This document shows positions 16,998 to 26,218 of a stretch of DNA of 64,000 nucleotides, one piece after another. The stretch's first letter is position 1. Every line of letters begins with the position of its first letter. The DNA is taken from contig OZ242164.1 in assembly GCA_965205335.1 (NCBI GenBank), positions 896,001-960,000 of the forward strand, given 5' to 3'. This DNA comes from Candidatus Woesearchaeota archaeon. GTDB lineage: Archaea > Nanobdellota > Nanobdellia > Woesearchaeales > UBA583. The translations under genes were made by a program, and so were the position numbers. Below the pieces are notes generated by a model. The model was not told the origin of the DNA. It saw only the letters and a program-made list of their open reading frames with translations, and searched no databases.

Positions 16998-19271
16998 CTA
17001 TCTACTCCAAGTAATAAAAGAACTTAAATCAGGGGCACTATTAATATTAAATCTATCATACTCTGAATTTCCACTTGAATCAACAGGAGATACCTTTCTA
17101 ACCTCAATTGAAGTAATATCAGAAGAATATTGCAGATTTTCAATCTTTCCATTGTCATCGACTTCTGAAGTTATTACATTTGGTGAATCTAATTCACTTC
17201 TGTACACTAAAGTTTGAGTATATAAAGATTTAACGTCTTCCGATTCCTTAGGCCTCCACTGGATGAAAAAATCATTTCCTACTCTATTTAAACTATAAGA
17301 CACAAAAACCACAGAACTAATATCGGGTGGTTTATTATCTATTATCTCTACAACATTCTTATATGGCCTAATTAAAATTCCATCTTCCTTATTTAGAACA
17401 TAATAATTAGTATCACTTGTGGAACTCTGTGAAATATCATACTCCTTAAAAATCTCTCTGAGAGTTCCACGTCCCTGCTCATCCTCTGTAACCAAAACAA
17501 CATTATAATTCTTTGAATTCTCTAAACTAAACTCAGGTCCAACAAAAACAACTTTTTCGTAATTTGGATTATTCACATTAGAAATATCAGAAGTAACCAA
17601 AACATTAGTATCTATTTTTGACAAACTCTTATAACAAAAATTTGTATTGCAAACACCTTTTTCAAGTTCCACATCATCATCACCCACTTTATAAACATAC
17701 AAACCGTATGAATAAATCTCATCATCAGAATTATCGTCAACATTAATATTAATAGCAAATGAATTCTCCATATCTGGCAAATTATTAATTATAGAGACTT
17801 CATCCGTTCTCAAAGATCTTGGCCCAAAAACCTTTTGGGGGATTTTTGAATTATATGAAAGTTTAAGCAGATTCTCATCTGTAAAATAATTATAATTCGG
17901 GTGATCTACTGCAAAAACAGCAAAATAAACCTTTCTCCCTTCCTCAAGCAGAACATAATCCTCAGAATCAAAATCATATATCTGATAAACTATTTTACTC
18001 TTAATACTATTTGGTCCAAAACCACCTTCACCATCAACTAATAAAAGATTCAAATTCAAATTGCTATCCTCATTAGAATGATAATACTTAACTCCATCAA
18101 CTGAAATAGAAGTATCATGCAAAGTACTTGGAATCTCGCTATTAACAAGCAAATCCTTCAACTTATTATATTTCTCAGAACCATAAACTTCAGGATCAAA
18201 AAAATCCTCATATGAATATAGCACAATAAACCTATTAGAAACTTCCTTTGTTGCAAACTTTGAAATTCTTATCTTTATTGCATTATCTAAAACCTCAAAA
18301 TTACTAAGAGAATATTCAACCACATCATAAGGAGCCTCATCTAAAACAATCATAAACTCCAAATCCAAATTACCTTCCTTAGAATCAAAATTAACCATGA
18401 AAATATCATAACCTTCAAGAGGAATTTCAGAAAGTTCTTTTACAGAAACATCAAACTCACTTAAAATTTTAGAATTCTTCTTACGAATCAATTCCTTAAA
18501 AATCAAATTAATACAATACTCTACTTTATTTATTACATTATCTGGAATATCCTCACGCCTTCTGCAAACAGGAATTTCACTTTTCACAGAATCAGATAAC
18601 TCAGGCAGAACATGATTTATCACATTAAAAAGTTCAGAATAAGAACCTAATACAAAATCAAACTCATATACATTATCTCTTGAAACAGAACCCACATCAG
18701 AAGAATACAACTGATTAGATGAAATACTTATCAAAAACTCAGAATGAGAAGCAGAACTAACATCTATGGACTTAAGATCTAAATCATTACTTTTACTAAA
18801 AAACCCCCCTATTTCTTTTTTCAATTCTTTTTCTAAATAAATTGCAAAAGCATTATTAAACTCCTCCACATCACTAATACAAGAAACACCATCACTATCA
18901 TCTGTCTTTGTTTCATCAATTAACTTCTGATTATAAAAAATAGGTGTTTTTGTCTCGTCATAAAGACATCCAACAAAATTCTCTCTATCAAGATCATCTA
19001 AATTCCTTTCAATACCATATAACTGGTTATCTATGAAATCATCAATTGACTTTGAAGCATAATTCAAAACAAACGAATTCAAAAAAATCTCTTCATAAAA
19101 AGATATTGAATTAGACTTATCAACAGATTTCAAAATAAAAAACTCTTTATCAAAATATGAATCCTTATGACTTGACAAAACAAAAATAAAAAAAGCTAGA
19201 ACTAAAATAATCATTGCGACAGACATAATATATGGGAAAATTGTACTTGCTTTTTTATTAAACATAATCAT
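16998..19271 (-). CDS. Large acidic surface protein with class III-like signal
   Basis: NKKA followed by a hydrophobic stretch; beta-rich acidic body. Confidence 0.7.
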   Translation of the reverse strand: MIMFNKKASTIFPYIMSVAMIILVLAFFIFVLSSHKDSYFDKEFFILKSVDKSNSISFYEEIFLNSFVLNYASKSIDDFIDNQLYGIERNLDDLDRENFVGCLYDETKTPIFYNQKLIDETKTDDSDGVSCISDVEEFNNAFAIYLEKELKKEIGGFFSKSNDLDLKSIDVSSASHSEFLISISSNQLYSSDVGSVSRDNVYEFDFVLGSYSELFNVINHVLPELSDSVKSEIPVCRRREDIPDNVINKVEYCINLIFKELIRKKNSKILSEFDVSVKELSEIPLEGYDIFMVNFDSKEGNLDLEFMIVLDEAPYDVVEYSLSNFEVLDNAIKIRISKFATKEVSNRFIVLYSYEDFFDPEVYGSEKYNKLKDLLVNSEIPSTLHDTSISVDGVKYYHSNEDSNLNLNLLLVDGEGGFGPNSIKSKIVYQIYDFDSEDYVLLEEGRKVYFAVFAVDHPNYNYFTDENLLKLSYNSKIPQKVFGPRSLRTDEVSIINNLPDMENSFAININVDDNSDDEIYSYGLYVYKVGDDDVELEKGVCNTNFCYKSLSKIDTNVLVTSDISNVNNPNYEKVVFVGPEFSLENSKNYNVVLVTEDEQGRGTLREIFKEYDISQSSTSDTNYYVLNKEDGILIRPYKNVVEIIDNKPPDISSVVFVSYSLNRVGNDFFIQWRPKESEDVKSLYTQTLVYRSELDSPNVITSEVDDNGKIENLQYSSDITSIEVRKVSPVDSSGNSEYDRFNINSAPDLSSFITWSR

Positions 19272-19277
19272 CTTTCT

Positions 19278-19850
19278 TTAAGGACCTCCAGGAACTCTGA
19301 CAATAGGAGAATTTGGTAAAAACTTATTAAAATAGACTTTAGTATAACCTGAATTAGAAGTTCTAATAGTCACAAAATAATTCAAGTTCAAAAGAGGACC
19401 ATAATAATAAATAGGAGCATCCTTTTCACTTTTTATATCAAGCAGAGTATCTCTATTAACTTTTGTGCCTGAATGTTTCTCATAAAGTTCATAAATATCT
19501 TTTTTTTCTGATGACTTACCAATCTCACTTAGGTATTCTTCTTTATATTCCCCAACCAAAGATAAACTATCTTTAGTATCAAGCCAGATTAAATCATAAA
19601 CCCTATAATCACGCGAACTGTCTCCAAAATGCTCTTTGGCTTCATCATCACTAATCTTTAGCATCAGAAAAGTATTAACAAAAACTCTGGGGAACTCATA
19701 TAACAAATCAGGAACACTTTCTTCTATATCATCATTAAGTGCACTTGAAGAAGAAAATGCAAGGTACATTACAACAGAACAAACTACTAAAGTCACTGCC
19801 CAAAGCACATATGAATACAACAAATACTGGGCTTTTTTTGAATCTTTCAT
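19278..19850 (-). CDS. Pilin-like protein (class III signal peptide)
   Basis: SKKAQ followed by a hydrophobic helix. Confidence 0.7.
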   Translation of the reverse strand: MKDSKKAQYLLYSYVLWAVTLVVCSVVMYLAFSSSSALNDDIEESVPDLLYEFPRVFVNTFLMLKISDDEAKEHFGDSSRDYRVYDLIWLDTKDSLSLVGEYKEEYLSEIGKSSEKKDIYELYEKHSGTKVNRDTLLDIKSEKDAPIYYYGPLLNLNYFVTIRTSNSGYTKVYFNKFLPNSPIVRVPGGP

Positions 19851-19853
19851 TTT

Positions 19854-21566
19854 TTAATAATGAGGAAATTTGTGAACCTTCTTAAAAATATCATAAACCT
19901 TTGTTAAATCATCAAATGTATCAAGTTGAGCAACAATATTAGCTCTATCTCTCTTCTTTGCTTCCTTACTGTATTTTTCAGGAACATCAGGTCCACTTGA
20001 TTTCTTAATATTTTTACTTCTCTTTTCTTCCTTCTTACCACCCCCAATATCAGGTTTAATTACTGAAAACAAATCCGTTTCATCAGGATCTGGAAATTCT
20101 TCATTAAAGAAATTCATATATGCAAGCAAATCATCACGAATTATAGCCAATTCTTCAATAAATGATTCCATAATTCTGAGATTATCCACCTTTAACTTCT
20201 CTCTATATGATGCTAATTCATAAATATTCCATGTTACTCCCTTATAATTTATATCATTTCTCGTATTGGGAATAAACTGCTCTCCTTGTTGCGTTGTAAT
20301 CTTCTCAGAACGTCTTCTCTGTGAAAAATTATACTCAATTATTGGTAACTTTCTCATATCTATCTTGAAAACATAAGCAGGATTTTCTTTCCATTTCCTT
20401 TTTATTTCCTTAAACTCCTTAGGGGTAATATCCTTATTTTTTGATTCAAAAAAAACATACTTAGGATGAGTTCCTCTTTCTTCTCCTGCTAAAAACCCAC
20501 TCTTTTTTCTATATTTTCCAGCTATTATCTCAAAACCATTAATAAAAAGTCCATATCTTGTAAACTCAATATCTGTCATCTCATTCTCCCCTCTGGGCTT
20601 AAAGAAATATCTTGGAGAAACCACTTTGATATTAGAAAAAGAAGCATCCATAAGATTTAACAAATCAGGATGATTCTCCTCAAAACCGTAAAACCAATTT
20701 TCTGAACTTGTTCCTTCCATCTTCCTGTTAATCTCCATCAAAAGAGGTTTCATAAAAGTAATATACATCTGCGTCTGGGCATAAATATTTTTCAAAGCTG
20801 AAATCTTAAGTCTAAACGTCATCTCAGTATCCTTAATTGCAGTTGGAAGCCAAGTATAAAACCTATACATAAACCTTGCAGTATGTTCTGATGCCAAATG
20901 AGACACATCAACAGGATAAATATCTTCATCAAGTTGCTGCTTAAATGTCTTTTTTGTCTGAAAAGGATCATCTAAATTAATTCCAAAAAACAACTGAGGC
21001 AAAAGAGCAAAATCCAACCCCTGTTCTGTCTGAGGCTTGTGCATTTGCCAGATTTTTCCACCATCAACCTCATTCACCCATTTATCCTTTAAATGATTAA
21101 CCGCTTCATTTCTCTCATTTCTCCATTTCTTCAAATCCTCTGAATTAGGGTTCTCCTTTTTCAGTTCGTTCTGAACCAAAGCATCATTATAAGTTATCTT
21201 ATCAAACCACTTTTTATAAAAGTGAACTTCCTTAACCTCTTTTAGAAGAGGAATCAAATGCTGACGAATAAGAGTTATCAACTGCTGAAAATTCTCCTGA
21301 AAAGCCTTTATTGCATTTCCCTTAATTTGTCTCACATTTCCTCCAAACTGAGAGGATTCACTAAAATAGTGATTATCCTCAAACTTTAGAAAATTCCATC
21401 CTTTCCCGTTAGTATGTCCGAAATGAATATGCCAAAAATAAATATCAGACAAATCTACATTAGGTCCATGAATAGATATCCTCAATTCCATAAAAGGTTT
21501 ATCTAAAGAAGCAGTCCGAGTGTACTCTGTCTTAGCTCTATCTAAAAGCAAAAAATCATCAGCCAT
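19854..21566 (-). CDS. Hypothetical protein
   Basis: 570-aa ORF, first gene of an operon with the two pilin-like genes. Confidence 0.8.
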   Translation of the reverse strand: MADDFLLLDRAKTEYTRTASLDKPFMELRISIHGPNVDLSDIYFWHIHFGHTNGKGWNFLKFEDNHYFSESSQFGGNVRQIKGNAIKAFQENFQQLITLIRQHLIPLLKEVKEVHFYKKWFDKITYNDALVQNELKKENPNSEDLKKWRNERNEAVNHLKDKWVNEVDGGKIWQMHKPQTEQGLDFALLPQLFFGINLDDPFQTKKTFKQQLDEDIYPVDVSHLASEHTARFMYRFYTWLPTAIKDTEMTFRLKISALKNIYAQTQMYITFMKPLLMEINRKMEGTSSENWFYGFEENHPDLLNLMDASFSNIKVVSPRYFFKPRGENEMTDIEFTRYGLFINGFEIIAGKYRKKSGFLAGEERGTHPKYVFFESKNKDITPKEFKEIKRKWKENPAYVFKIDMRKLPIIEYNFSQRRRSEKITTQQGEQFIPNTRNDINYKGVTWNIYELASYREKLKVDNLRIMESFIEELAIIRDDLLAYMNFFNEEFPDPDETDLFSVIKPDIGGGKKEEKRSKNIKKSSGPDVPEKYSKEAKKRDRANIVAQLDTFDDLTKVYDIFKKVHKFPHY

Positions 21567-21672
21567 TTATATAAACCAATATATTTTTAATTTATAAATT
21601 TCGTTCTAACTTAATAAGTAGTGTTTAAAAGCGCAAAAGCAGATTTATAACTAAACAAAAATTCCTAAAAAT

Positions 21673-22293
21673 ATGTTAAGCGAATTCATTTCCAAAACTC
21701 ATATTAAAAAATTGGCAATATACAAAAATAAATTTTCCTGTAACAAACCATTTAACAATCTATCAATACCTAAATTTTTAGACGAAAAACTTGCAAGAAA
21801 AATTAAAAACGCCTTAAAAAAAGAGGAATACTACATTGAAGAAAACGATTTATACAAATTCCAGAGAACAGTTGACTTTAAACACCTAAAAAACAAAACC
21901 CTAAAAGAACTTAGAAATAACTTGTTATCAGAAGAATTCATATCCTATATTGAAAATCTCACAAATACCAAACTAAAAAGAAACAAAATTGACTTGCACT
22001 CTCTAAAACTTCTAAACACTCATTATCTTCTGTGCCATGACGATGATATTTTAGGCAGAAAAATAGCATTCATTCTAAACCTCTCTGAAAACAGGAGCAC
22101 AAAAGATGGAGGAAACTTAGAATTATTTGAATGCAAAAACAACAAACCATTTAAAATTTGCAAATCAATTACTCCCCAATTTAACCAATTTAACATTTTT
22201 ATTGTAGAACCAAACAAATCCTTTCATCAAATATCAGAAGTACTGTCAAACAAACAAAGAATATCAATTTCAGGATGGTTTCATTACAAATGA
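21673..22293 (+). CDS. 2OG-Fe(II) oxygenase resembling the OGFOD1/Tpa1 catalytic domain
   Basis: NDLYKFQ, LLCHDD (HxD), GRKIAFIL, SFHQISEV (distal His) and RISISGWFH (2OG-binding Arg). Confidence 0.9.
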   Translation: MLSEFISKTHIKKLAIYKNKFSCNKPFNNLSIPKFLDEKLARKIKNALKKEEYYIEENDLYKFQRTVDFKHLKNKTLKELRNNLLSEEFISYIENLTNTKLKRNKIDLHSLKLLNTHYLLCHDDDILGRKIAFILNLSENRSTKDGGNLELFECKNNKPFKICKSITPQFNQFNIFIVEPNKSFHQISEVLSNKQRISISGWFHYK

Positions 22294-22895
22294 AAATTAA
22301 CAAAACATACGAAAAAAAATCTATAATCTCTCAGATGAGTAAATACTTTAATCAAAATGAATTTATCTTATTAAACAGTTTCTTTGAGAATGACATATCC
22401 AAAATTAAATCCAATATTCTAAAAGAAGATTTTAAAGAAGAATACAACCCAATATCTCACAGAAAAAAAATTCTTAACAAAAAAGACATATATGCTCCTA
22501 AAATACTTGAATTATTTAACTATTTTAAATCAAAAGAATTCACTCATTTAATAAAAGAAATAACCCATTTAAACCTTCGGATTACAAACATTGAACTATA
22601 TAAATATTCACATAAAGATTTCATAATACTAAACGATGAAACAAAACCACAAAACACTGTTGATGTAATATTTGATTTAACCTCAGATTGGAAAAAAGAA
22701 AATGGAGGTATTCTAACTTATACAACAAAAAACAAAGAACTCCTATATATAACTCCTGATTTTAATACATTAACAATAGTAAATAAGCCCAAAGAAATTA
22801 TGAAATACTTAAAATACATAAATAACAAAGCAAAAACTAATCAAATACTTAGATTTGAAATTACCTTTAATATAAGGAAATTACCAAAAAAATAA
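22290..22895 (+). CDS. Inactive 2OG-oxygenase fold resembling the OGFOD1/Ofd1 C-terminal domain
   Basis: INKTY, W..ENGG..TY, ELL.I.P..NTL.IV and MKYLKYIN motifs; HxD..H missing; ATGA overlap with the upstream gene. Confidence 0.8.
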   Translation: MKINKTYEKKSIISQMSKYFNQNEFILLNSFFENDISKIKSNILKEDFKEEYNPISHRKKILNKKDIYAPKILELFNYFKSKEFTHLIKEITHLNLRITNIELYKYSHKDFIILNDETKPQNTVDVIFDLTSDWKKENGGILTYTTKNKELLYITPDFNTLTIVNKPKEIMKYLKYINNKAKTNQILRFEITFNIRKLPKK

Positions 22896-22986: not shown

Positions 22987-23448
22987 ATGTTTATGCCAAA
23001 TATTCCAAGAAGAAAAATCTATGAAGTAATGCTTGAATTTGAAGATGGAATGATTGAAATGCAGATTTTGCTCTATAACAGAGATAATTTTGAGAAATTC
23101 AGAGAATCATTTTACGATGAAGGTTATCCTAAAATAAGAACTTCCTATAAAAAAATTAAAGTTCTAATGATTATGTTCTTGGAAAACAGAAAATATACAT
23201 CCCATGAAGAATTTGAAAAGGACTTAAATCATCTAAAAAGAAATGATGAAAATGTCAAAAAACATTTATGGAAGAGTAAGAATTTACCTTTAAAATTCAA
23301 ATTTCTAATATTAAGAATAGATTATCTTATGAGAAAATATCCAAAAATAAACAACAGATTCATTGCCAGAATTCTGTATCGAAACTTTGACAAGTTCAAT
23401 TCTCAAGTTCCCAAAATTCTTGAACTAAGACGCGATTATATGAAATAA
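22987..23448 (+). CDS. Hypothetical basic protein
   Basis: 153-aa ORF preceded by TTTATAA. Confidence 0.7.
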   Translation: MFMPNIPRRKIYEVMLEFEDGMIEMQILLYNRDNFEKFRESFYDEGYPKIRTSYKKIKVLMIMFLENRKYTSHEEFEKDLNHLKRNDENVKKHLWKSKNLPLKFKFLILRIDYLMRKYPKINNRFIARILYRNFDKFNSQVPKILELRRDYMK

Positions 23449-23449
23449 A

Positions 23450-23650
23450 ATGGAAATATACATTGAAAAAGAAAATACAACAAAACAAATTAAACTTGAA
23501 AAAAATGAGAAGATAAAAGAAGTTTTAAAAGAACTTGGAATCTCAATAAACTCTGTAATTCTCGTTAAAAATGATACAATATGCCTTGAAGATGAAACAG
23601 TTTCAGATGAAGACAAAATAAAAATCCTCTCAGTTGTTTCAGGCGGTTAA
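23450..23650 (+). CDS. MoaD/ThiS/SAMP ubiquitin-like protein
   Basis: 66 aa ending ILSVVSGG. Confidence 0.9.
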   Translation: MEIYIEKENTTKQIKLEKNEKIKEVLKELGISINSVILVKNDTICLEDETVSDEDKIKILSVVSGG

Positions 23651-25372: not shown

Positions 25373-26218
25373 ATGAGTCTTTTTGGAAAGAAAAAAGAAA
25401 AAGAAGATATGAAACAAACTCAGGATATAAAAAATACAAGTTCAATTTCTCCTAATCAATCTAATTTAAATAATGTGCCATCTTTTGGGCAAACTGCCTC
25501 AAACCCAAATCCATTTGTAAACCCTTTTGCAGAGAATAACAATTCTCCTATATCAAGTGCAAATCCAACACCTAATCCCACATTCAATCCAGCACCAAAT
25601 TCAATGCCTAATCCAGAACCCATCCCTAATGTCCAGATGCCTAATTCTAATCCTCCTATGCCTCCTCCTATGTCACACCAACAGCAACCAATACAACCAA
25701 TGCAATCACTTTCAATGCCACTACAGGATTTAAATTCATCAATGCCATCTCCACAACCTTCACAATCTATACAACAGCCAATGCAACAACCAGTAAATAT
25801 ACAAACTCCAAATGAAGCACCTTCTAGTACAGCACCTAAAGAAAACAATCAACTATCAAAAGAAGATATTGAGGAAATGATTGATGAAATCGTTGAAAAA
25901 GTTATAGAAGAAAGATGGAAAACATTAGTTAGCAATGTTGAAAAAGTTGTATCATGGAAAGAAAAACAAGAATCCCATATCAATATGATTAAAGAAGATA
26001 TTGTTTCAATTAAAGAAACATTTGACAAACTTGAAAAAAGACTCATATCAAAAATAGAAGACTATGATAAAAATGTACTTGATGTGAACTCTGAAATTAG
26101 AGCCTTAGAAAAAGTCTTTCAGAAAATAACTCCTACTCTTGTCAATAATGTTAACGAATTATCAAAAATTGCAAAAGATATAAAATCAGGCAGAGATGCA
26201 CAAGAAGAATCAATATAA
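25373..26218 (+). CDS. Pro/Gln-rich protein with C-terminal coiled coil
   Basis: Low-complexity P/N/Q N-half, then IEEMIDEIVEKVIEERW..ALEKVFQKI heptads. Confidence 0.8.
   Translation: MSLFGKKKEKEDMKQTQDIKNTSSISPNQSNLNNVPSFGQTASNPNPFVNPFAENNNSPISSANPTPNPTFNPAPNSMPNPEPIPNVQMPNSNPPMPPPMSHQQQPIQPMQSLSMPLQDLNSSMPSPQPSQSIQQPMQQPVNIQTPNEAPSSTAPKENNQLSKEDIEEMIDEIVEKVIEERWKTLVSNVEKVVSWKEKQESHINMIKEDIVSIKETFDKLEKRLISKIEDYDKNVLDVNSEIRALEKVFQKITPTLVNNVNELSKIAKDIKSGRDAQEESI

What the first reader, a model, noticed from the sequence alone, without database searches (positions are those of the whole stretch)
21673..22895. Split archaeal OGFOD1/Tpa1: a eukaryote-type ribosomal prolyl hydroxylase encoded as a two-gene operon
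Seen: gene 1 has NDLYKFQ, LLCHDD, GRKIAFIL and SFHQISEVLS..RISISGWFH, with an intact HxD..H/R site. Gene 2 starts on an ATGA overlap, has the same fold, lacks the iron ligands and carries INKTY, W..ENGG..Y, ELL..P..N.L..V and KYIN. Knowledge, recalled from memory: human OGFOD1 has NDLYKFQ, LLCHDDELEGRRIAFIL and SFHQVSEVLS..RLSISGWFH in its N-domain, and WINPTY, WEPEYGG, ELLTVNPESNSLALV and KFVKHIN in its inactive C-domain. OGFOD1/Tpa1/Ofd1 hydroxylate a conserved proline of uS12/RPS23 and are generally treated as eukaryotic. Inference: this archaeon encodes both halves in eukaryotic order as separate proteins, suggesting an O2-dependent heterodimeric uS12 hydroxylase. It would be either a pre-fusion state of the eukaryotic gene or a transfer from eukaryotes followed by fission.
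Basis: partly seen in the sequence, partly recalled or inferred. Interest (0 to 1): 0.92.

Follow-up and report, generated by a model that had tools for sequence, protein, structure and literature searches.

The report
Split archaeal OGFOD1-type prolyl hydroxylase operon
A small DPANN archaeon, and many of its relatives, encode the two halves of the "eukaryote-only" ribosomal prolyl hydroxylase OGFOD1/Tpa1 as two overlapping genes, so this oxygen-dependent ribosome modification may exist in archaea.

Summary
Gene 1 (21673-22293) matches Pfam 2OG-FeII_Oxy_4 (4e-29). Its best solved relative is the human OGFOD1 catalytic domain (1.8e-29), and it keeps the HxD...H triad and RxS motif. Gene 2 (22290-22895, ATGA overlap) matches Ofd1_CTDD (7e-18, above cut-off), lacks the iron ligands, and its model superposes on the OGFOD1/Ofd1/Tpa1 C-domains (TM 0.88).

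The split is not an error. In 28 of 28 related loci the two genes are adjacent in separate frames, with 23 overlapping by 1-11 nt. The break removes exactly the 31-residue OGFOD1 linker. Ofd1_CTDD was found in 56 of 401 genomes of the phylum (Nanobdellota/Nanoarchaeota). All longer relatives I could name are fused eukaryotic OGFOD1.

A complex model supports a heterodimer (0.89 versus best control 0.01), though this may reflect memory of solved OGFOD1/Tpa1 structures. The genome's uS12 carries the target KQPNSA loop. Hydroxylation of it is inferred, not shown.

Trees separate archaeal and eukaryotic forms cleanly, but the root is unresolved, so both pre-fusion ancestry and eukaryote-to-archaeon transfer with fission remain open.

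Papers I read state the subfamily is eukaryote-only. I rate this a new variant of a known kind, of fairly high interest.

The parts
21644..21650 (+). TTTATAA, a possible archaeal TATA box about 26 nt upstream of the gene 1 ATG (would give a leaderless or near-leaderless transcript)
   Evidence: Read from the sequence. This is inference only: the region is about 26% G+C, so such words are common. The sigma-70 scan does not apply to archaea.
21673..22293 (+). Gene 1: catalytic subunit, 206 aa, an OGFOD1/Tpa1-type 2OG/Fe(II) oxygenase N-domain
   Evidence: PF13661 at 4.1e-29 and PF13640 at 2.6e-13. The best PDB match is human OGFOD1 4NHX chain residues 80-258 at 1.8e-29, followed by Tpa1 at 2.8e-17. 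All 4 of 4 PDB hits are OGFOD1 or Tpa1. 24 of 24 longer relatives are fused proteins carrying PF13661+PF10637; all 23 that bear a source name are eukaryotic.
22036..22044 (+). HxD metal ligands H122-D123-D124 (LLCHDD)
   Evidence: They align to OGFOD1 His155/Asp157 (with Horita 2015 passages). H122 and D124 are invariant in 28 of 28 archaeal homologues.
22225..22227 (+). Distal metal ligand H185 (SFHQ)
   Evidence: It aligns to OGFOD1 His218 and is invariant in 28 of 28.
22258..22266 (+). RxS motif R196-I-S198, the 2OG C-5 carboxylate binder
   Evidence: It aligns to OGFOD1 Arg230/Ser232. R196 is invariant in 28 of 28.
22290..22293 (+). ATGA overlap: the start of gene 2 and the stop of gene 1 (translational coupling inferred)
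   Evidence: 23 of 28 related loci overlap by 1, 4, 8 or 11 nt. The other 5 have gaps of 1, 1, 2, 31 and 85 nt. Starts were chosen by my script.
22290..22895 (+). Gene 2: non-catalytic subunit, 201 aa, an Ofd1_CTDD-type DSBH pseudo-enzyme
   Evidence: PF10637 at 7.2e-18, covering profile positions 10-239 of 255. The family profile hits the OGFOD1 C-domain at 4.2e-25. The AF2 model has pLDDT 95.1. The Foldseek top 9 of 9 are OGFOD1, Ofd1-CTD or Tpa1, with query-normalised TM 0.88-0.75.
22632..22640 (+). Degenerate triad position N115-D116-E117 in gene 2 (no HxD)
   Evidence: Register taken. Across 28 homologues only G140, N159 and N178 are invariant, and there is no distal His.
22812..22826 (+). 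K-Y-I-N-N motif of gene 2, the best-conserved stretch, predicted to sit at the interface with gene 1
   Evidence: Y176, N178 and N179 are invariant in alignment A1. Residues 173, 175-176 and 178-180 contact gene 1 residues 116-120 and 189 with the least expected error.

Best explanation
The two genes form a translationally coupled operon. It encodes a two-subunit version of the OGFOD1/Tpa1/Ofd1 prolyl hydroxylase.

Subunit 1 is the Fe(II)/2-oxoglutarate/O2-dependent catalytic double-stranded beta-helix. Subunit 2 is the catalytically dead second beta-helix (Ofd1_CTDD).

The two subunits pack minor sheet against minor sheet, as the two domains of OGFOD1 do, but without the covalent linker. This heterodimer is modelled, not shown.

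The heterodimer most likely hydroxylates the decoding-centre proline of free uS12 (Pro60 in KQPNSA of this genome's uS12, counted from the listed TTG start) before the protein is built into the 30S subunit. That would make translation fidelity or termination depend on O2, iron and 2OG. This step is inferred.

My odds: about 0.9 that it is a functional split OGFOD1-type pair, about 0.8 that the two subunits bind, and about 0.5-0.6 that uS12 is the substrate.
For: Family assignment of both halves rests.

The catalytic residues H122, D124, H185 and R196 are invariant in 28 of 28 homologues. They map onto OGFOD1 His155, Asp157, His218 and Arg230.

The split is conserved. In 28 of 28 loci, drawn from one genus, other families of the order and other orders of the class, the genes lie in the same order in separate frames. 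23 of 28 have overlapping stop and start codons, at 31-61% (gene 1) and 19-46% (gene 2) identity to the window.

Gene 1 ends at the residue aligned to OGFOD1 238, the last residue of the N-domain. Gene 2's I3 aligns to residue 270, the first residue of the C-domain. Fused relatives have a linker of 24-36 residues in 62 of 73 cases.

The complex model scores 0.89, against 0.01 for the best of 3 controls. That mark was reached by 58 of 80 solved complexes and 2 of 110 mismatched pairs; these counts hold only roughly because my own alignments were used. The runs agree in at least 95% of contacts and the partner's pLDDT is at least 88.

The interface uses the strands that carry H122 and H185 in gene 1 and the equivalent strands in gene 2. 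This is the minor-sheet packing described for OGFOD1.

The genome's own uS12 is archaeal/eukaryote-type and carries the loop EAKQPNSALRKC.

The genome has an Fe/Mn superoxide dismutase, so it is expected to meet O2.
Against: There is no biochemical or proteomic evidence, and the substrate is inferred from homology alone.

The target proline is universal, so its presence does not discriminate between substrates.

The complex score may come from the model's memory of the solved OGFOD1/Tpa1 structures. It shows likeness, not binding.

No terminal oxidase was found. Most relatives of this group are described as anaerobes (passages). An O2-requiring enzyme would therefore work only in oxic or micro-oxic niches.

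The pair occurs in only 56 of 401 genomes of the phylum, so it is dispensable.

OGFOD1 Tyr169, a 2OG contact, is Asn136 in the window protein; the position varies between Y and N among homologues.

No conserved neighbour genes point to translation.
Confidence: 0.6

Rival explanations
1. Origin A (pre-fusion state). The archaeal two-gene operon keeps the ancestral arrangement after a tandem duplication. The eukaryotic OGFOD1 gene is a later fusion of such a pair, inherited or acquired from an archaeon of this kind.
For: N- and C-domains are paralogues, and every archaeal pair is unfused at the same boundary.

In the careful paralogue-rooted tree of 96 rows, eukaryotes form one clade in both halves (N 99/90, C 98/88). 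That clade branches inside the archaeal diversity, next to the window's genus (N 96/91, C 73/41).

Archaeal sequences are at least as divergent from one another as eukaryotic ones are.
Against: The tree carries 'long branches meet' warnings, and the basal archaeal rows are the longest ones.

Archaeal N-domains held as one clade are only 6.2 lnL worse, with p-AU 0.35.

After dropping the 8 longest archaeal pairs, the C half gives archaea against eukaryotes (83/55; 82% of bootstraps). The N half still has archaea paraphyletic, forming one clan in 18% of bootstraps.

In the archaea I could search, the pair is confined to one class of one DPANN phylum and is patchy. Asgard and other phyla could not be searched here.
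Confidence: 0.35
2. Origin B (transfer and fission). An ancestor of these Nanoarchaeia took the fused gene from a eukaryote. The linker was lost, leaving two coupled genes, which then spread within the class vertically and by transfer.
For: The family is universal and fused in all named longer relatives, which are all eukaryotic, but patchy in archaea (56 of 401).

Gene 1 is 42% identical to a fungal OGFOD1, as close as or closer than it is to homologues in other families of its own order (31-41%).

The gene tree mixes orders of the class, which suggests mobility.

Rooting cannot exclude a sister or nested position.
Against: Eukaryotes are a single clade in 97-99% (N half) and 60-98% (C half) of bootstrap trees when rooted by the paralogue. 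No specific eukaryotic donor group is indicated.

No fused archaeal intermediate was seen: 0 of 28 loci, and open frames were under 353 aa in all matches.

A fission that cleanly deletes the linker is a rarer kind of event than a fusion (general knowledge, not tested here).
Confidence: 0.4
3. The pair is a real heterodimeric 2OG oxygenase, but its substrate is not uS12. It might be another translation factor or ribosomal protein, a host protein, or a small molecule.
For: Substrate specificity was not tested. Related prolyl hydroxylases act on EF-Tu, HIF or collagen-like proteins (reference titles seen, PDB titles). There are no translation genes beside the pair. These archaea probably live on other cells (abstract).
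Against: Gene 1 is closest to OGFOD1 and Tpa1 among all solved structures, and no other hydroxylase family appears at E <= 0.01. The dedicated C-domain partner, known only from uS12 hydroxylases, is retained. The uS12 target loop is eukaryote-like.
Confidence: 0.25
4. The split is an artefact or a decaying gene: a frameshift from sequencing or assembly, or a recent pseudogene of a fused gene.
For: The two frames differ by one base at an A-rich junction, which is where such errors occur.
Against: The split is present in 28 of 28 loci at down to 19-31% identity, with four different overlap lengths and intact catalytic residues. Independently built contigs from two runs cross the junction without an indel. 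There is no linker sequence between the domains.
Confidence: 0.02

Closest known systems
Human OGFOD1 (PDB 4NHX/4NHY), uS12 (RPS23) prolyl 3-hydroxylase
   Same: It has the catalytic N-domain with His155/Asp157/His218 and the Arg230 RxS motif, and the inactive C-domain, in the same N-then-C order. Gene 1 matches at 1.8e-29 and the gene 2 family profile at 4.2e-25. The gene 2 model superposes at TM 0.88, rmsd 2.0. The predicted interface is of the minor-sheet type.
   Different: OGFOD1 is one 542-residue chain with a proline-rich 31-residue linker and a 60-residue acidic loop in the C-domain. The archaeal form is two chains of 206 and 201 residues with no linker and no acidic loop. It occurs in an archaeon, and its substrate is untested.
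S. cerevisiae Tpa1 and S. pombe Ofd1 (PDB 3KT1/3KT4/3MGU/4NHK; Ofd1 C-domain 6E0T)
   Same: The two-domain architecture and family are the same. Gene 1 matches Tpa1 at 2.8e-17. The gene 2 model superposes on the Ofd1 C-domain at TMq 0.85 / TMt 0.70.
   Different: Tpa1 has a 95-residue helical linker and dimerises through C-domain inserts that are absent here. Ofd1 and Tpa1 C-domains bind Nro1 and Ett1; no such partner was looked for here.
Single-domain bacterial and phage 2OG-FeII_Oxy_4 / prolyl hydroxylases (e.g. Pseudomonas PPHD, 4J25)
   Same: They share the double-stranded beta-helix fold and Pfam clan. The atlas lists about 235-aa bacterial and phage clusters as feature neighbours, and Foldseek gives TM 0.6-0.67.
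   Different: They have no Ofd1_CTDD partner. They are much more distant: none appears at E <= 0.01 for gene 1 in the PDB. I did not fetch any, so they were not used as outgroups.

Membership tests
OGFOD1/Tpa1/Ofd1 subfamily of 2OG prolyl hydroxylases | Catalytic DSBH domain with an HxD...H facial triad and an RxS 2OG-binding motif | tested here: met
   H122, D124, H185 and R196-x-S198 align to OGFOD1 155, 157, 218 and 230-232. H122, D124, H185 and R196 are invariant in 28 of 28.
OGFOD1/Tpa1/Ofd1 subfamily of 2OG prolyl hydroxylases | The catalytic domain is closer to OGFOD1/Tpa1 than to other hydroxylases | tested here: met
   4 of 4 PDB hits at E <= 0.01 are OGFOD1 or Tpa1. 24 of 24 longer relatives are fused OGFOD1-type proteins.
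OGFOD1/Tpa1/Ofd1 subfamily of 2OG prolyl hydroxylases | A second, non-catalytic DSBH domain of the Ofd1_CTDD type following the catalytic one | tested here: met
   PF10637 scores 65 bits against a cut-off of 27. The family profile hits the OGFOD1 C-domain at 4.2e-25. The Foldseek top 9 of 9 are OGFOD1, Ofd1 or Tpa1. The iron ligands are absent.
OGFOD1/Tpa1/Ofd1 subfamily of 2OG prolyl hydroxylases | Both domains on one polypeptide, joined by a linker | tested here: not met
   There are two ORFs in different frames in 28 of 28 loci. Gene 1 ends and gene 2 begins at the domain borders 238 and 270 of OGFOD1.
OGFOD1/Tpa1/Ofd1 subfamily of 2OG prolyl hydroxylases | The N- and C-domains pack through their minor beta-sheets | tested here: inconclusive
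   The complex model scores 0.89 against 0.01 for the best control. The interface lies on the strands bearing H122/H185 and their gene 2 equivalents. Solved OGFOD1/Tpa1 structures exist, so the pass may be from memory.
OGFOD1/Tpa1/Ofd1 subfamily of 2OG prolyl hydroxylases | Hydroxylates the decoding-centre proline of uS12/RPS23 | not testable with these tools
   Only the substrate's presence could be checked: the genome's uS12 has KQPNSA.
OGFOD1/Tpa1/Ofd1 subfamily of 2OG prolyl hydroxylases | Restricted to eukaryotes (as stated by Horita et al. 2015) | tested here: not met
   It is present in a 1.2-Mb archaeal genome and in 56 of 401 genomes of its phylum.
Pfam PF10637 Ofd1_CTDD | Whole-protein score above the gathering threshold | tested here: met
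   65.4 bits against 27. 32 of 32 near-length relatives carry PF10637.
Pfam PF13661 2OG-FeII_Oxy_4 | Whole-protein score above the gathering threshold | tested here: met
   101.4 bits against 27 for gene 1. Gene 2 scores 22.7 bits, below the cut-off.

The most novel reading that the evidence does not exclude
The eukaryotic ribosomal prolyl hydroxylase OGFOD1/Tpa1 descends from an archaeal two-gene operon of the kind kept in these Nanoarchaeia, with fusion occurring on the eukaryotic stem. On this reading the archaeal pair hydroxylates uS12 today. O2-, iron- and 2OG-dependent tuning of the decoding centre would then predate eukaryotes and operate in non-respiring DPANN archaea.
Probability: 0.25. 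Interest if true: 0.9.

Novelty: new variant of a known kind. Interest (0 to 1): 0.72.

Why it matters
Two statements in the papers I read would need revising. Horita et al. 2015 (passages) say OGFOD1-subfamily hydroxylases "are found only in eukaryotes". A 2015 JBC review (passage) says protein-modifying 2OG oxygenases are common in eukaryotes and many prokaryotes "but not archaea".

The split form is also a natural experiment on the unexplained role of the OGFOD1 C-domain. Here that domain is a separate, strongly conserved subunit whose best-conserved motif sits at the predicted interface.

The pair gives a small, intron-free, linker-free system of two roughly 200-residue proteins. It could be used to test whether the C-domain is needed for activity or for uS12 binding.

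It is also a eukaryote-type translation-modification gene found in DPANN. I could not search Asgard archaea, so whether they have it is unknown. This makes its origin (fusion or fission, and the direction of transfer) a concrete, testable question.

Finally, it hints that some non-respiring, SOD-bearing DPANN archaea use O2 as a co-substrate or signal.

Tried and rejected
- **Frameshift or pseudogene reading.** Rejected.
- **Search for fused relatives with gene 2** (search for homologous proteins, 'longer'). 0 of 1677 candidates scored. The tool itself calls this weak evidence, and the profile search did find fused forms.
- **Sigma-70 promoter and terminator scan**. It found 7 promoter-like sites against 9.8 expected and 0 terminators. 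It is not informative for an archaeon.
- **Conserved neighbours**. Only genus-level synteny appeared (a ParA/NUBPL-type ATPase, a TrmB-type regulator and an unknown), and none of it is in the window's own locus. This gives no functional hint.
- **Rooting.**
  - The quick paralogue-rooted trees put eukaryotes inside archaea. The quick search was poor: a constrained tree was 48 lnL better.
  - The careful tree repeated the topology, but the AU test did not reject archaeal monophyly (p 0.35).
  - Removing the long branches changed the C half.
  - I therefore do not claim a root.
  - The AU test on the 140-row set was abandoned unfinished.
  - I did not test a specific eukaryotic donor.
- **Expression.** No RNA holder was listed.
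- **Run X4** (small share) laid nothing.
- **Search 'order of G424'**. It turned out to be the window's own order, with the same places as, so it added no new group: 7 of 61.
- **Apparent occurrence outside the group.** Records titled 'Bdellovibrionales bacterium' and 'Methanosarcinales archaeon' seemed to show this. It was rejected for the Bdellovibrionales record and one of the two Methanosarcinales records (L033, L029), whose genomes carry an archaeal uS12 82-86% identical to the window genome's. The other Methanosarcinales record (L034) has 61% and lies in the window's order.
  - Naming the 150 library hits, because the listing of cluster members was off.
  - Reading supplements of papers, which were closed and may hold distribution tables that I could not see.
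Full report
**What is there**

The window lies in a single-contig 1.2-Mb genome, 95% complete, with about 26-33% G+C. On the + strand, gene 1 (21673-22293, 206 aa) is followed by gene 2. I read gene 2 from the ATG at 22290 (201 aa, stop at 22893-22895). The two genes share the four bases ATGA.

Pfam scores are as follows:
- Gene 1: 2OG-FeII_Oxy_4 at 4.1e-29 (101 bits, cut-off 27) and 2OG-FeII_Oxy_3 at 2.6e-13.
- Gene 2: Ofd1_CTDD at 7.2e-18 (65 bits, cut-off 27, profile positions 10-239 of 255), with only sub-threshold scores for the catalytic families.

**Comparison with solved structures**

Against all PDB sequences, gene 1 finds only four distinct sequences at E <= 0.01. They are human OGFOD1 (1.8e-29) and three Tpa1 constructs (about 3e-17).

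The printed alignment, read together with passages of Horita et al. 2015 (PMC4396695), maps the catalytic residues:
- H122 and D124 map to His155 and Asp157.
- H185 maps to His218.
- R196-x-S198 maps to the Arg230-x-Ser232 motif.
- OGFOD1 Tyr169 is Asn136 here, at a position that varies between Y and N among homologues.

A profile of 32 gene 2 relatives hits the OGFOD1 C-domain (4.2e-25 overall, two stretches either side of the human acidic loop) and Tpa1 (6e-5).

An AlphaFold2 model of gene 2, built from a 28-row alignment, has pLDDT 95.1 and pTM 0.90. Its nine best Foldseek matches in the PDB are all OGFOD1, the Ofd1 C-domain or Tpa1 (TMq 0.88-0.75). Other prolyl hydroxylases follow at TMq 0.67 or less.

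Gene 2 has no metal site. The triad positions read N-D-E in the window, and H-D-x without the acid in many relatives. The distal His is replaced. Across 28 homologues only G140, N159 and N178 are invariant.

**The split is real and old**

Ofd1_CTDD was found in:
- 13 of 19 other genomes of the genus, and 1 of 21 genomes from other families of the order;
- 56 of 401 genomes sampled from the phylum, in 45 of 281 genera. Of these, 4 are in the window's genus (its own genome included), 39 in other genera of its order, and 13 in other orders of the class.

I examined 28 loci, and in all 28 a gene 1 homologue lies directly upstream of a gene 2 homologue in a separate frame.

With starts chosen by my script, 23 of 28 pairs overlap: 1 nt in 1 pair, 4 nt in 7, 8 nt in 9 and 11 nt in 6. 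The other five are 1, 1, 2, 31 and 85 nt apart.

Identity to the window proteins falls to 31% for gene 1 and 19% for gene 2. Even so, H122, D124, H185 and R196 are invariant.

Logan contigs from two runs cross the junction with no indel. A sequencing frameshift or a recent pseudogene is therefore excluded.

Gene 1 ends two residues after the position aligned to OGFOD1 residue 238. Gene 2's third residue aligns to residue 270. Horita et al. define the N-domain as 24-238, the linker as 239-269 and the C-domain as 270-542. The archaeal break therefore removes exactly the linker. In 62 of 73 fused relatives the gap between the two profile matches is 24-36 residues.

**Who has it**

- Near-length relatives of gene 2 number 32. 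All are 173-222 aa and all carry PF10637. One is named 'Nanoarchaeota archaeon'.
- The atlas's nearest clusters are roughly 192-aa Ofd1_CTDD proteins, 89-90% Archaea, most commonly Nanobdellota.
- Record titles of six further loci read Nanoarchaeia, Nanoarchaeales, 'archaeon UBA583', 'Methanosarcinales' (twice) and 'Bdellovibrionales'.
- I checked five of those six genomes; all five are 1.0-1.7 Mb. Four (the 'Bdellovibrionales', one 'Methanosarcinales', 'UBA583' and the Nanoarchaeales record) carry an archaeal uS12 82-87% identical to the window genome's. The other 'Methanosarcinales' record has 61% and lies in the window's order. I take the three odd titles as mislabels.
- The genome's own uS12 is closest to archaeal uS12 structures (4.6e-40), ahead of eukaryotic RPS23 (about 1e-31).
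- Longer relatives of gene 1 number 24, all 490-555 aa with both domains. 23 bear names, and all of those are eukaryotic: 22 Mortierella-type fungi and one insect. Identity ranges from 35% to 42%.
- A profile search of 1.84 billion representatives gave 1103 hits at E <= 1e-3. Of the best 150, 100 are 83-250 aa and 50 are 363-1004 aa with an N-domain followed by a C-domain. These carry no names, because the look-up tool was off. The best fused hit has only eukaryotic neighbours in the atlas.
- In a FastTree of 228 C-domains (fragments under 150 aa dropped), the clade holding all 73 fused rows contains only 2 short rows. Both are probably truncated gene models.

**How it probably works**

- Shown by sequence: an intact 2OG/Fe(II) site in gene 1 and a dead site in gene 2.
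- Modelled: a heterodimer. The score is 0.89 against 0.01 for the best of 3 controls. That mark was reached by 58 of 80 solved complexes and 2 of 110 mismatched pairs. The runs agree in at least 95% of contacts, and the partner's pLDDT is at least 88. My own alignments were used, so the calibration counts hold only roughly. Because OGFOD1 and Tpa1 are solved, the pass may be from memory. It shows likeness, not binding.
- The interface joins the gene 1 strands that carry H122 and H185, plus the invariant D59 and E189, to gene 2 residues 109-114 and 173-180. The latter include the conserved KYINN motif. This is the minor-sheet packing reported for OGFOD1.
- Inferred: overlapping stop and start codons give coupled, equimolar synthesis.
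- Inferred from homology: the substrate is uS12. The genome's copy has EAKQPNSALRKC, with Pro60.
- In fission yeast, Ofd1 acts on unassembled Rps23 (abstract of PMC5690285, seen in the listing). The proline is buried in the decoding centre, so I assume the free protein is the substrate here too.

**Physiological context**

The genome has one PF13661 gene only and an Fe/Mn superoxide dismutase. It has no match to cytochrome bd or heme-copper oxidase (genome 95% complete).

O2 would therefore be a co-substrate or signal, not a respiratory acceptor. Passages of PMC9723730 report mostly anaerobic but some oxic-layer Woesearchaeota.

No conserved neighbours exist beyond the genus. The window's neighbours are proteins without Pfam matches, a ThiS/SAMP2-like 66-aa protein and an RDD membrane protein.

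**Origin**

I built a concatenated N+C tree from 28 archaeal pairs and 42 of the 73 fused proteins. The fused rows kept were those with complete domains, and only 3 of the 22 fungal rows were retained. The tree was made with a quick search. It separates archaeal from fused forms on one branch (SH-aLRT 99). It shows three clans: the window's genus (12 rows), the other archaea (16 rows, mixing orders) and the eukaryotes (42 rows).

Rooting each half with its paralogue gave different answers depending on the search and the rows included:
- The quick trees put eukaryotes inside archaea, but that search was poor. A constrained tree scored 48 lnL better.
- The careful 96-row tree again made eukaryotes a clade (N 99/90, C 98/88) sister to the window's genus (N 96/91, C 73/41). 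The root fell among the longest archaeal branches, and the tree carried a long-branch warning.
- The AU test does not reject archaeal N-domain monophyly (6.2 lnL difference, p 0.35).
- After removing the 8 longest archaeal pairs, the C half gives archaea against eukaryotes (83/55). The N half stays paraphyletic, with archaea forming one clan in 18% of bootstraps.

The root is therefore unresolved.

What can be said:
- The duplication into N- and C-domains predates the archaeal/eukaryotic divergence of this family.
- There was a single fusion or a single fission.
- No particular eukaryotic donor is indicated.

I give roughly equal odds to pre-fusion ancestry and to ancient transfer from a eukaryote followed by fission. 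Some room remains for a third-party source.

**Novelty**

Horita et al. 2015 state that the OGFOD1 subfamily is 'found only in eukaryotes' and that prokaryotic prolyl hydroxylases are single-domain (passage). Markolovic et al. 2015 state that such protein modifications are common in eukaryotes and many prokaryotes 'but not archaea' (passage).

The literature searches gave:
- 'OGFOD1' with 'archaea': 12 papers, none on an archaeal homologue judging by title or abstract start. I read passages of two.
- 'prolyl hydroxylase' with 'DPANN': 0 papers.
- 'Tpa1', 'OGFOD1', 'prokaryot' and 'phylogen': 2 papers. I read passages of one.
- Any two of OGFOD1/Tpa1/Ofd1/Nanoarchaeota/Woesearchaeota/Asgard: 475 papers. 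None of the 25 listed holds both an enzyme term and an archaeal term.
- 'Ofd1_CTDD': 2 papers, from 2009 and 2012.
- '2-oxoglutarate', 'oxygenase', 'eukaryotic signature protein' and 'archaea': 1 preprint, which I did not read.

I therefore found no description in print. Subscription journals and supplements were not searchable. Automatic annotation already tags these archaeal proteins with PF10637.

I file it as a new variant of a known kind: it works like OGFOD1, it belongs to the family by sequence and fold, but it fails the single-chain criterion and the eukaryote-only criterion.

**Verdict**

The function on uS12 and the evolutionary direction remain open. Interest 0.72.

Noticed in passing
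window 23450-23650 (+): A 66-aa ORF ends in Gly-Gly and matches ThiS (1.3e-8) and SAMP2 (5.3e-7). It is a ubiquitin-like small archaeal modifier candidate, lying two genes downstream of the pair and overlapping or abutting the 153-aa unknown ORF at 22987-23448.
   Followed up: partly
window 16998-21566 (-): Three consecutive minus-strand ORFs of 757, 190 and 570 aa have no Pfam match at E <= 0.01. The 757-aa and 190-aa ORFs start with hydrophobic, signal- or anchor-like N-termini.
   Followed up: partly
window 22335 (+), protein P0001: The public gene call for gene 2 starts at a later ATG (186 aa). This cuts off the conserved M-x-I-N-x-x-Y N-terminus that aligns to the first residues of the OGFOD1 C-domain.
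   Followed up: yes
L029, L033, L034 (genome contigs records): Records titled 'Methanosarcinales archaeon' (two) and 'Bdellovibrionales bacterium' carry the split pair. For L029 and L033 the genome's archaeal uS12 is 82-86% identical to the window genome's; for L034 it is 61%. The titles look like mislabelled DPANN bins.
   Followed up: yes
G000:C1:246375-246620 (L038) and the whole genome: The genome encodes an Fe/Mn superoxide dismutase. It gave no match to cytochrome bd or heme-copper oxidase subunit I, which suggests an oxygen-tolerant but apparently non-respiring lifestyle.
   Followed up: partly
window 25373-26218 (+): A 281-aa ORF has a long Pro/Asn/Gln/Ser-rich low-complexity N-terminal half and a charged, coiled-coil-like C-terminal half. 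I did not search with it.
   Followed up: no
L011 (G016) and L020 (G285): These two relatives depart from the overlapping junction. L011 has an 8-residue C-terminal extension on gene 1, a 31-nt spacer and a GTG start for gene 2. In L020 my script found the first ATG 85 nt downstream, although the frame is open across the junction.
   Followed up: partly
P0085 (library protein, 1004 aa): One unnamed library protein holds two N-domain and two C-domain matches in tandem. It is either a duplicated OGFOD1-type protein or a merged gene model. I left it out of the trees.
   Followed up: no
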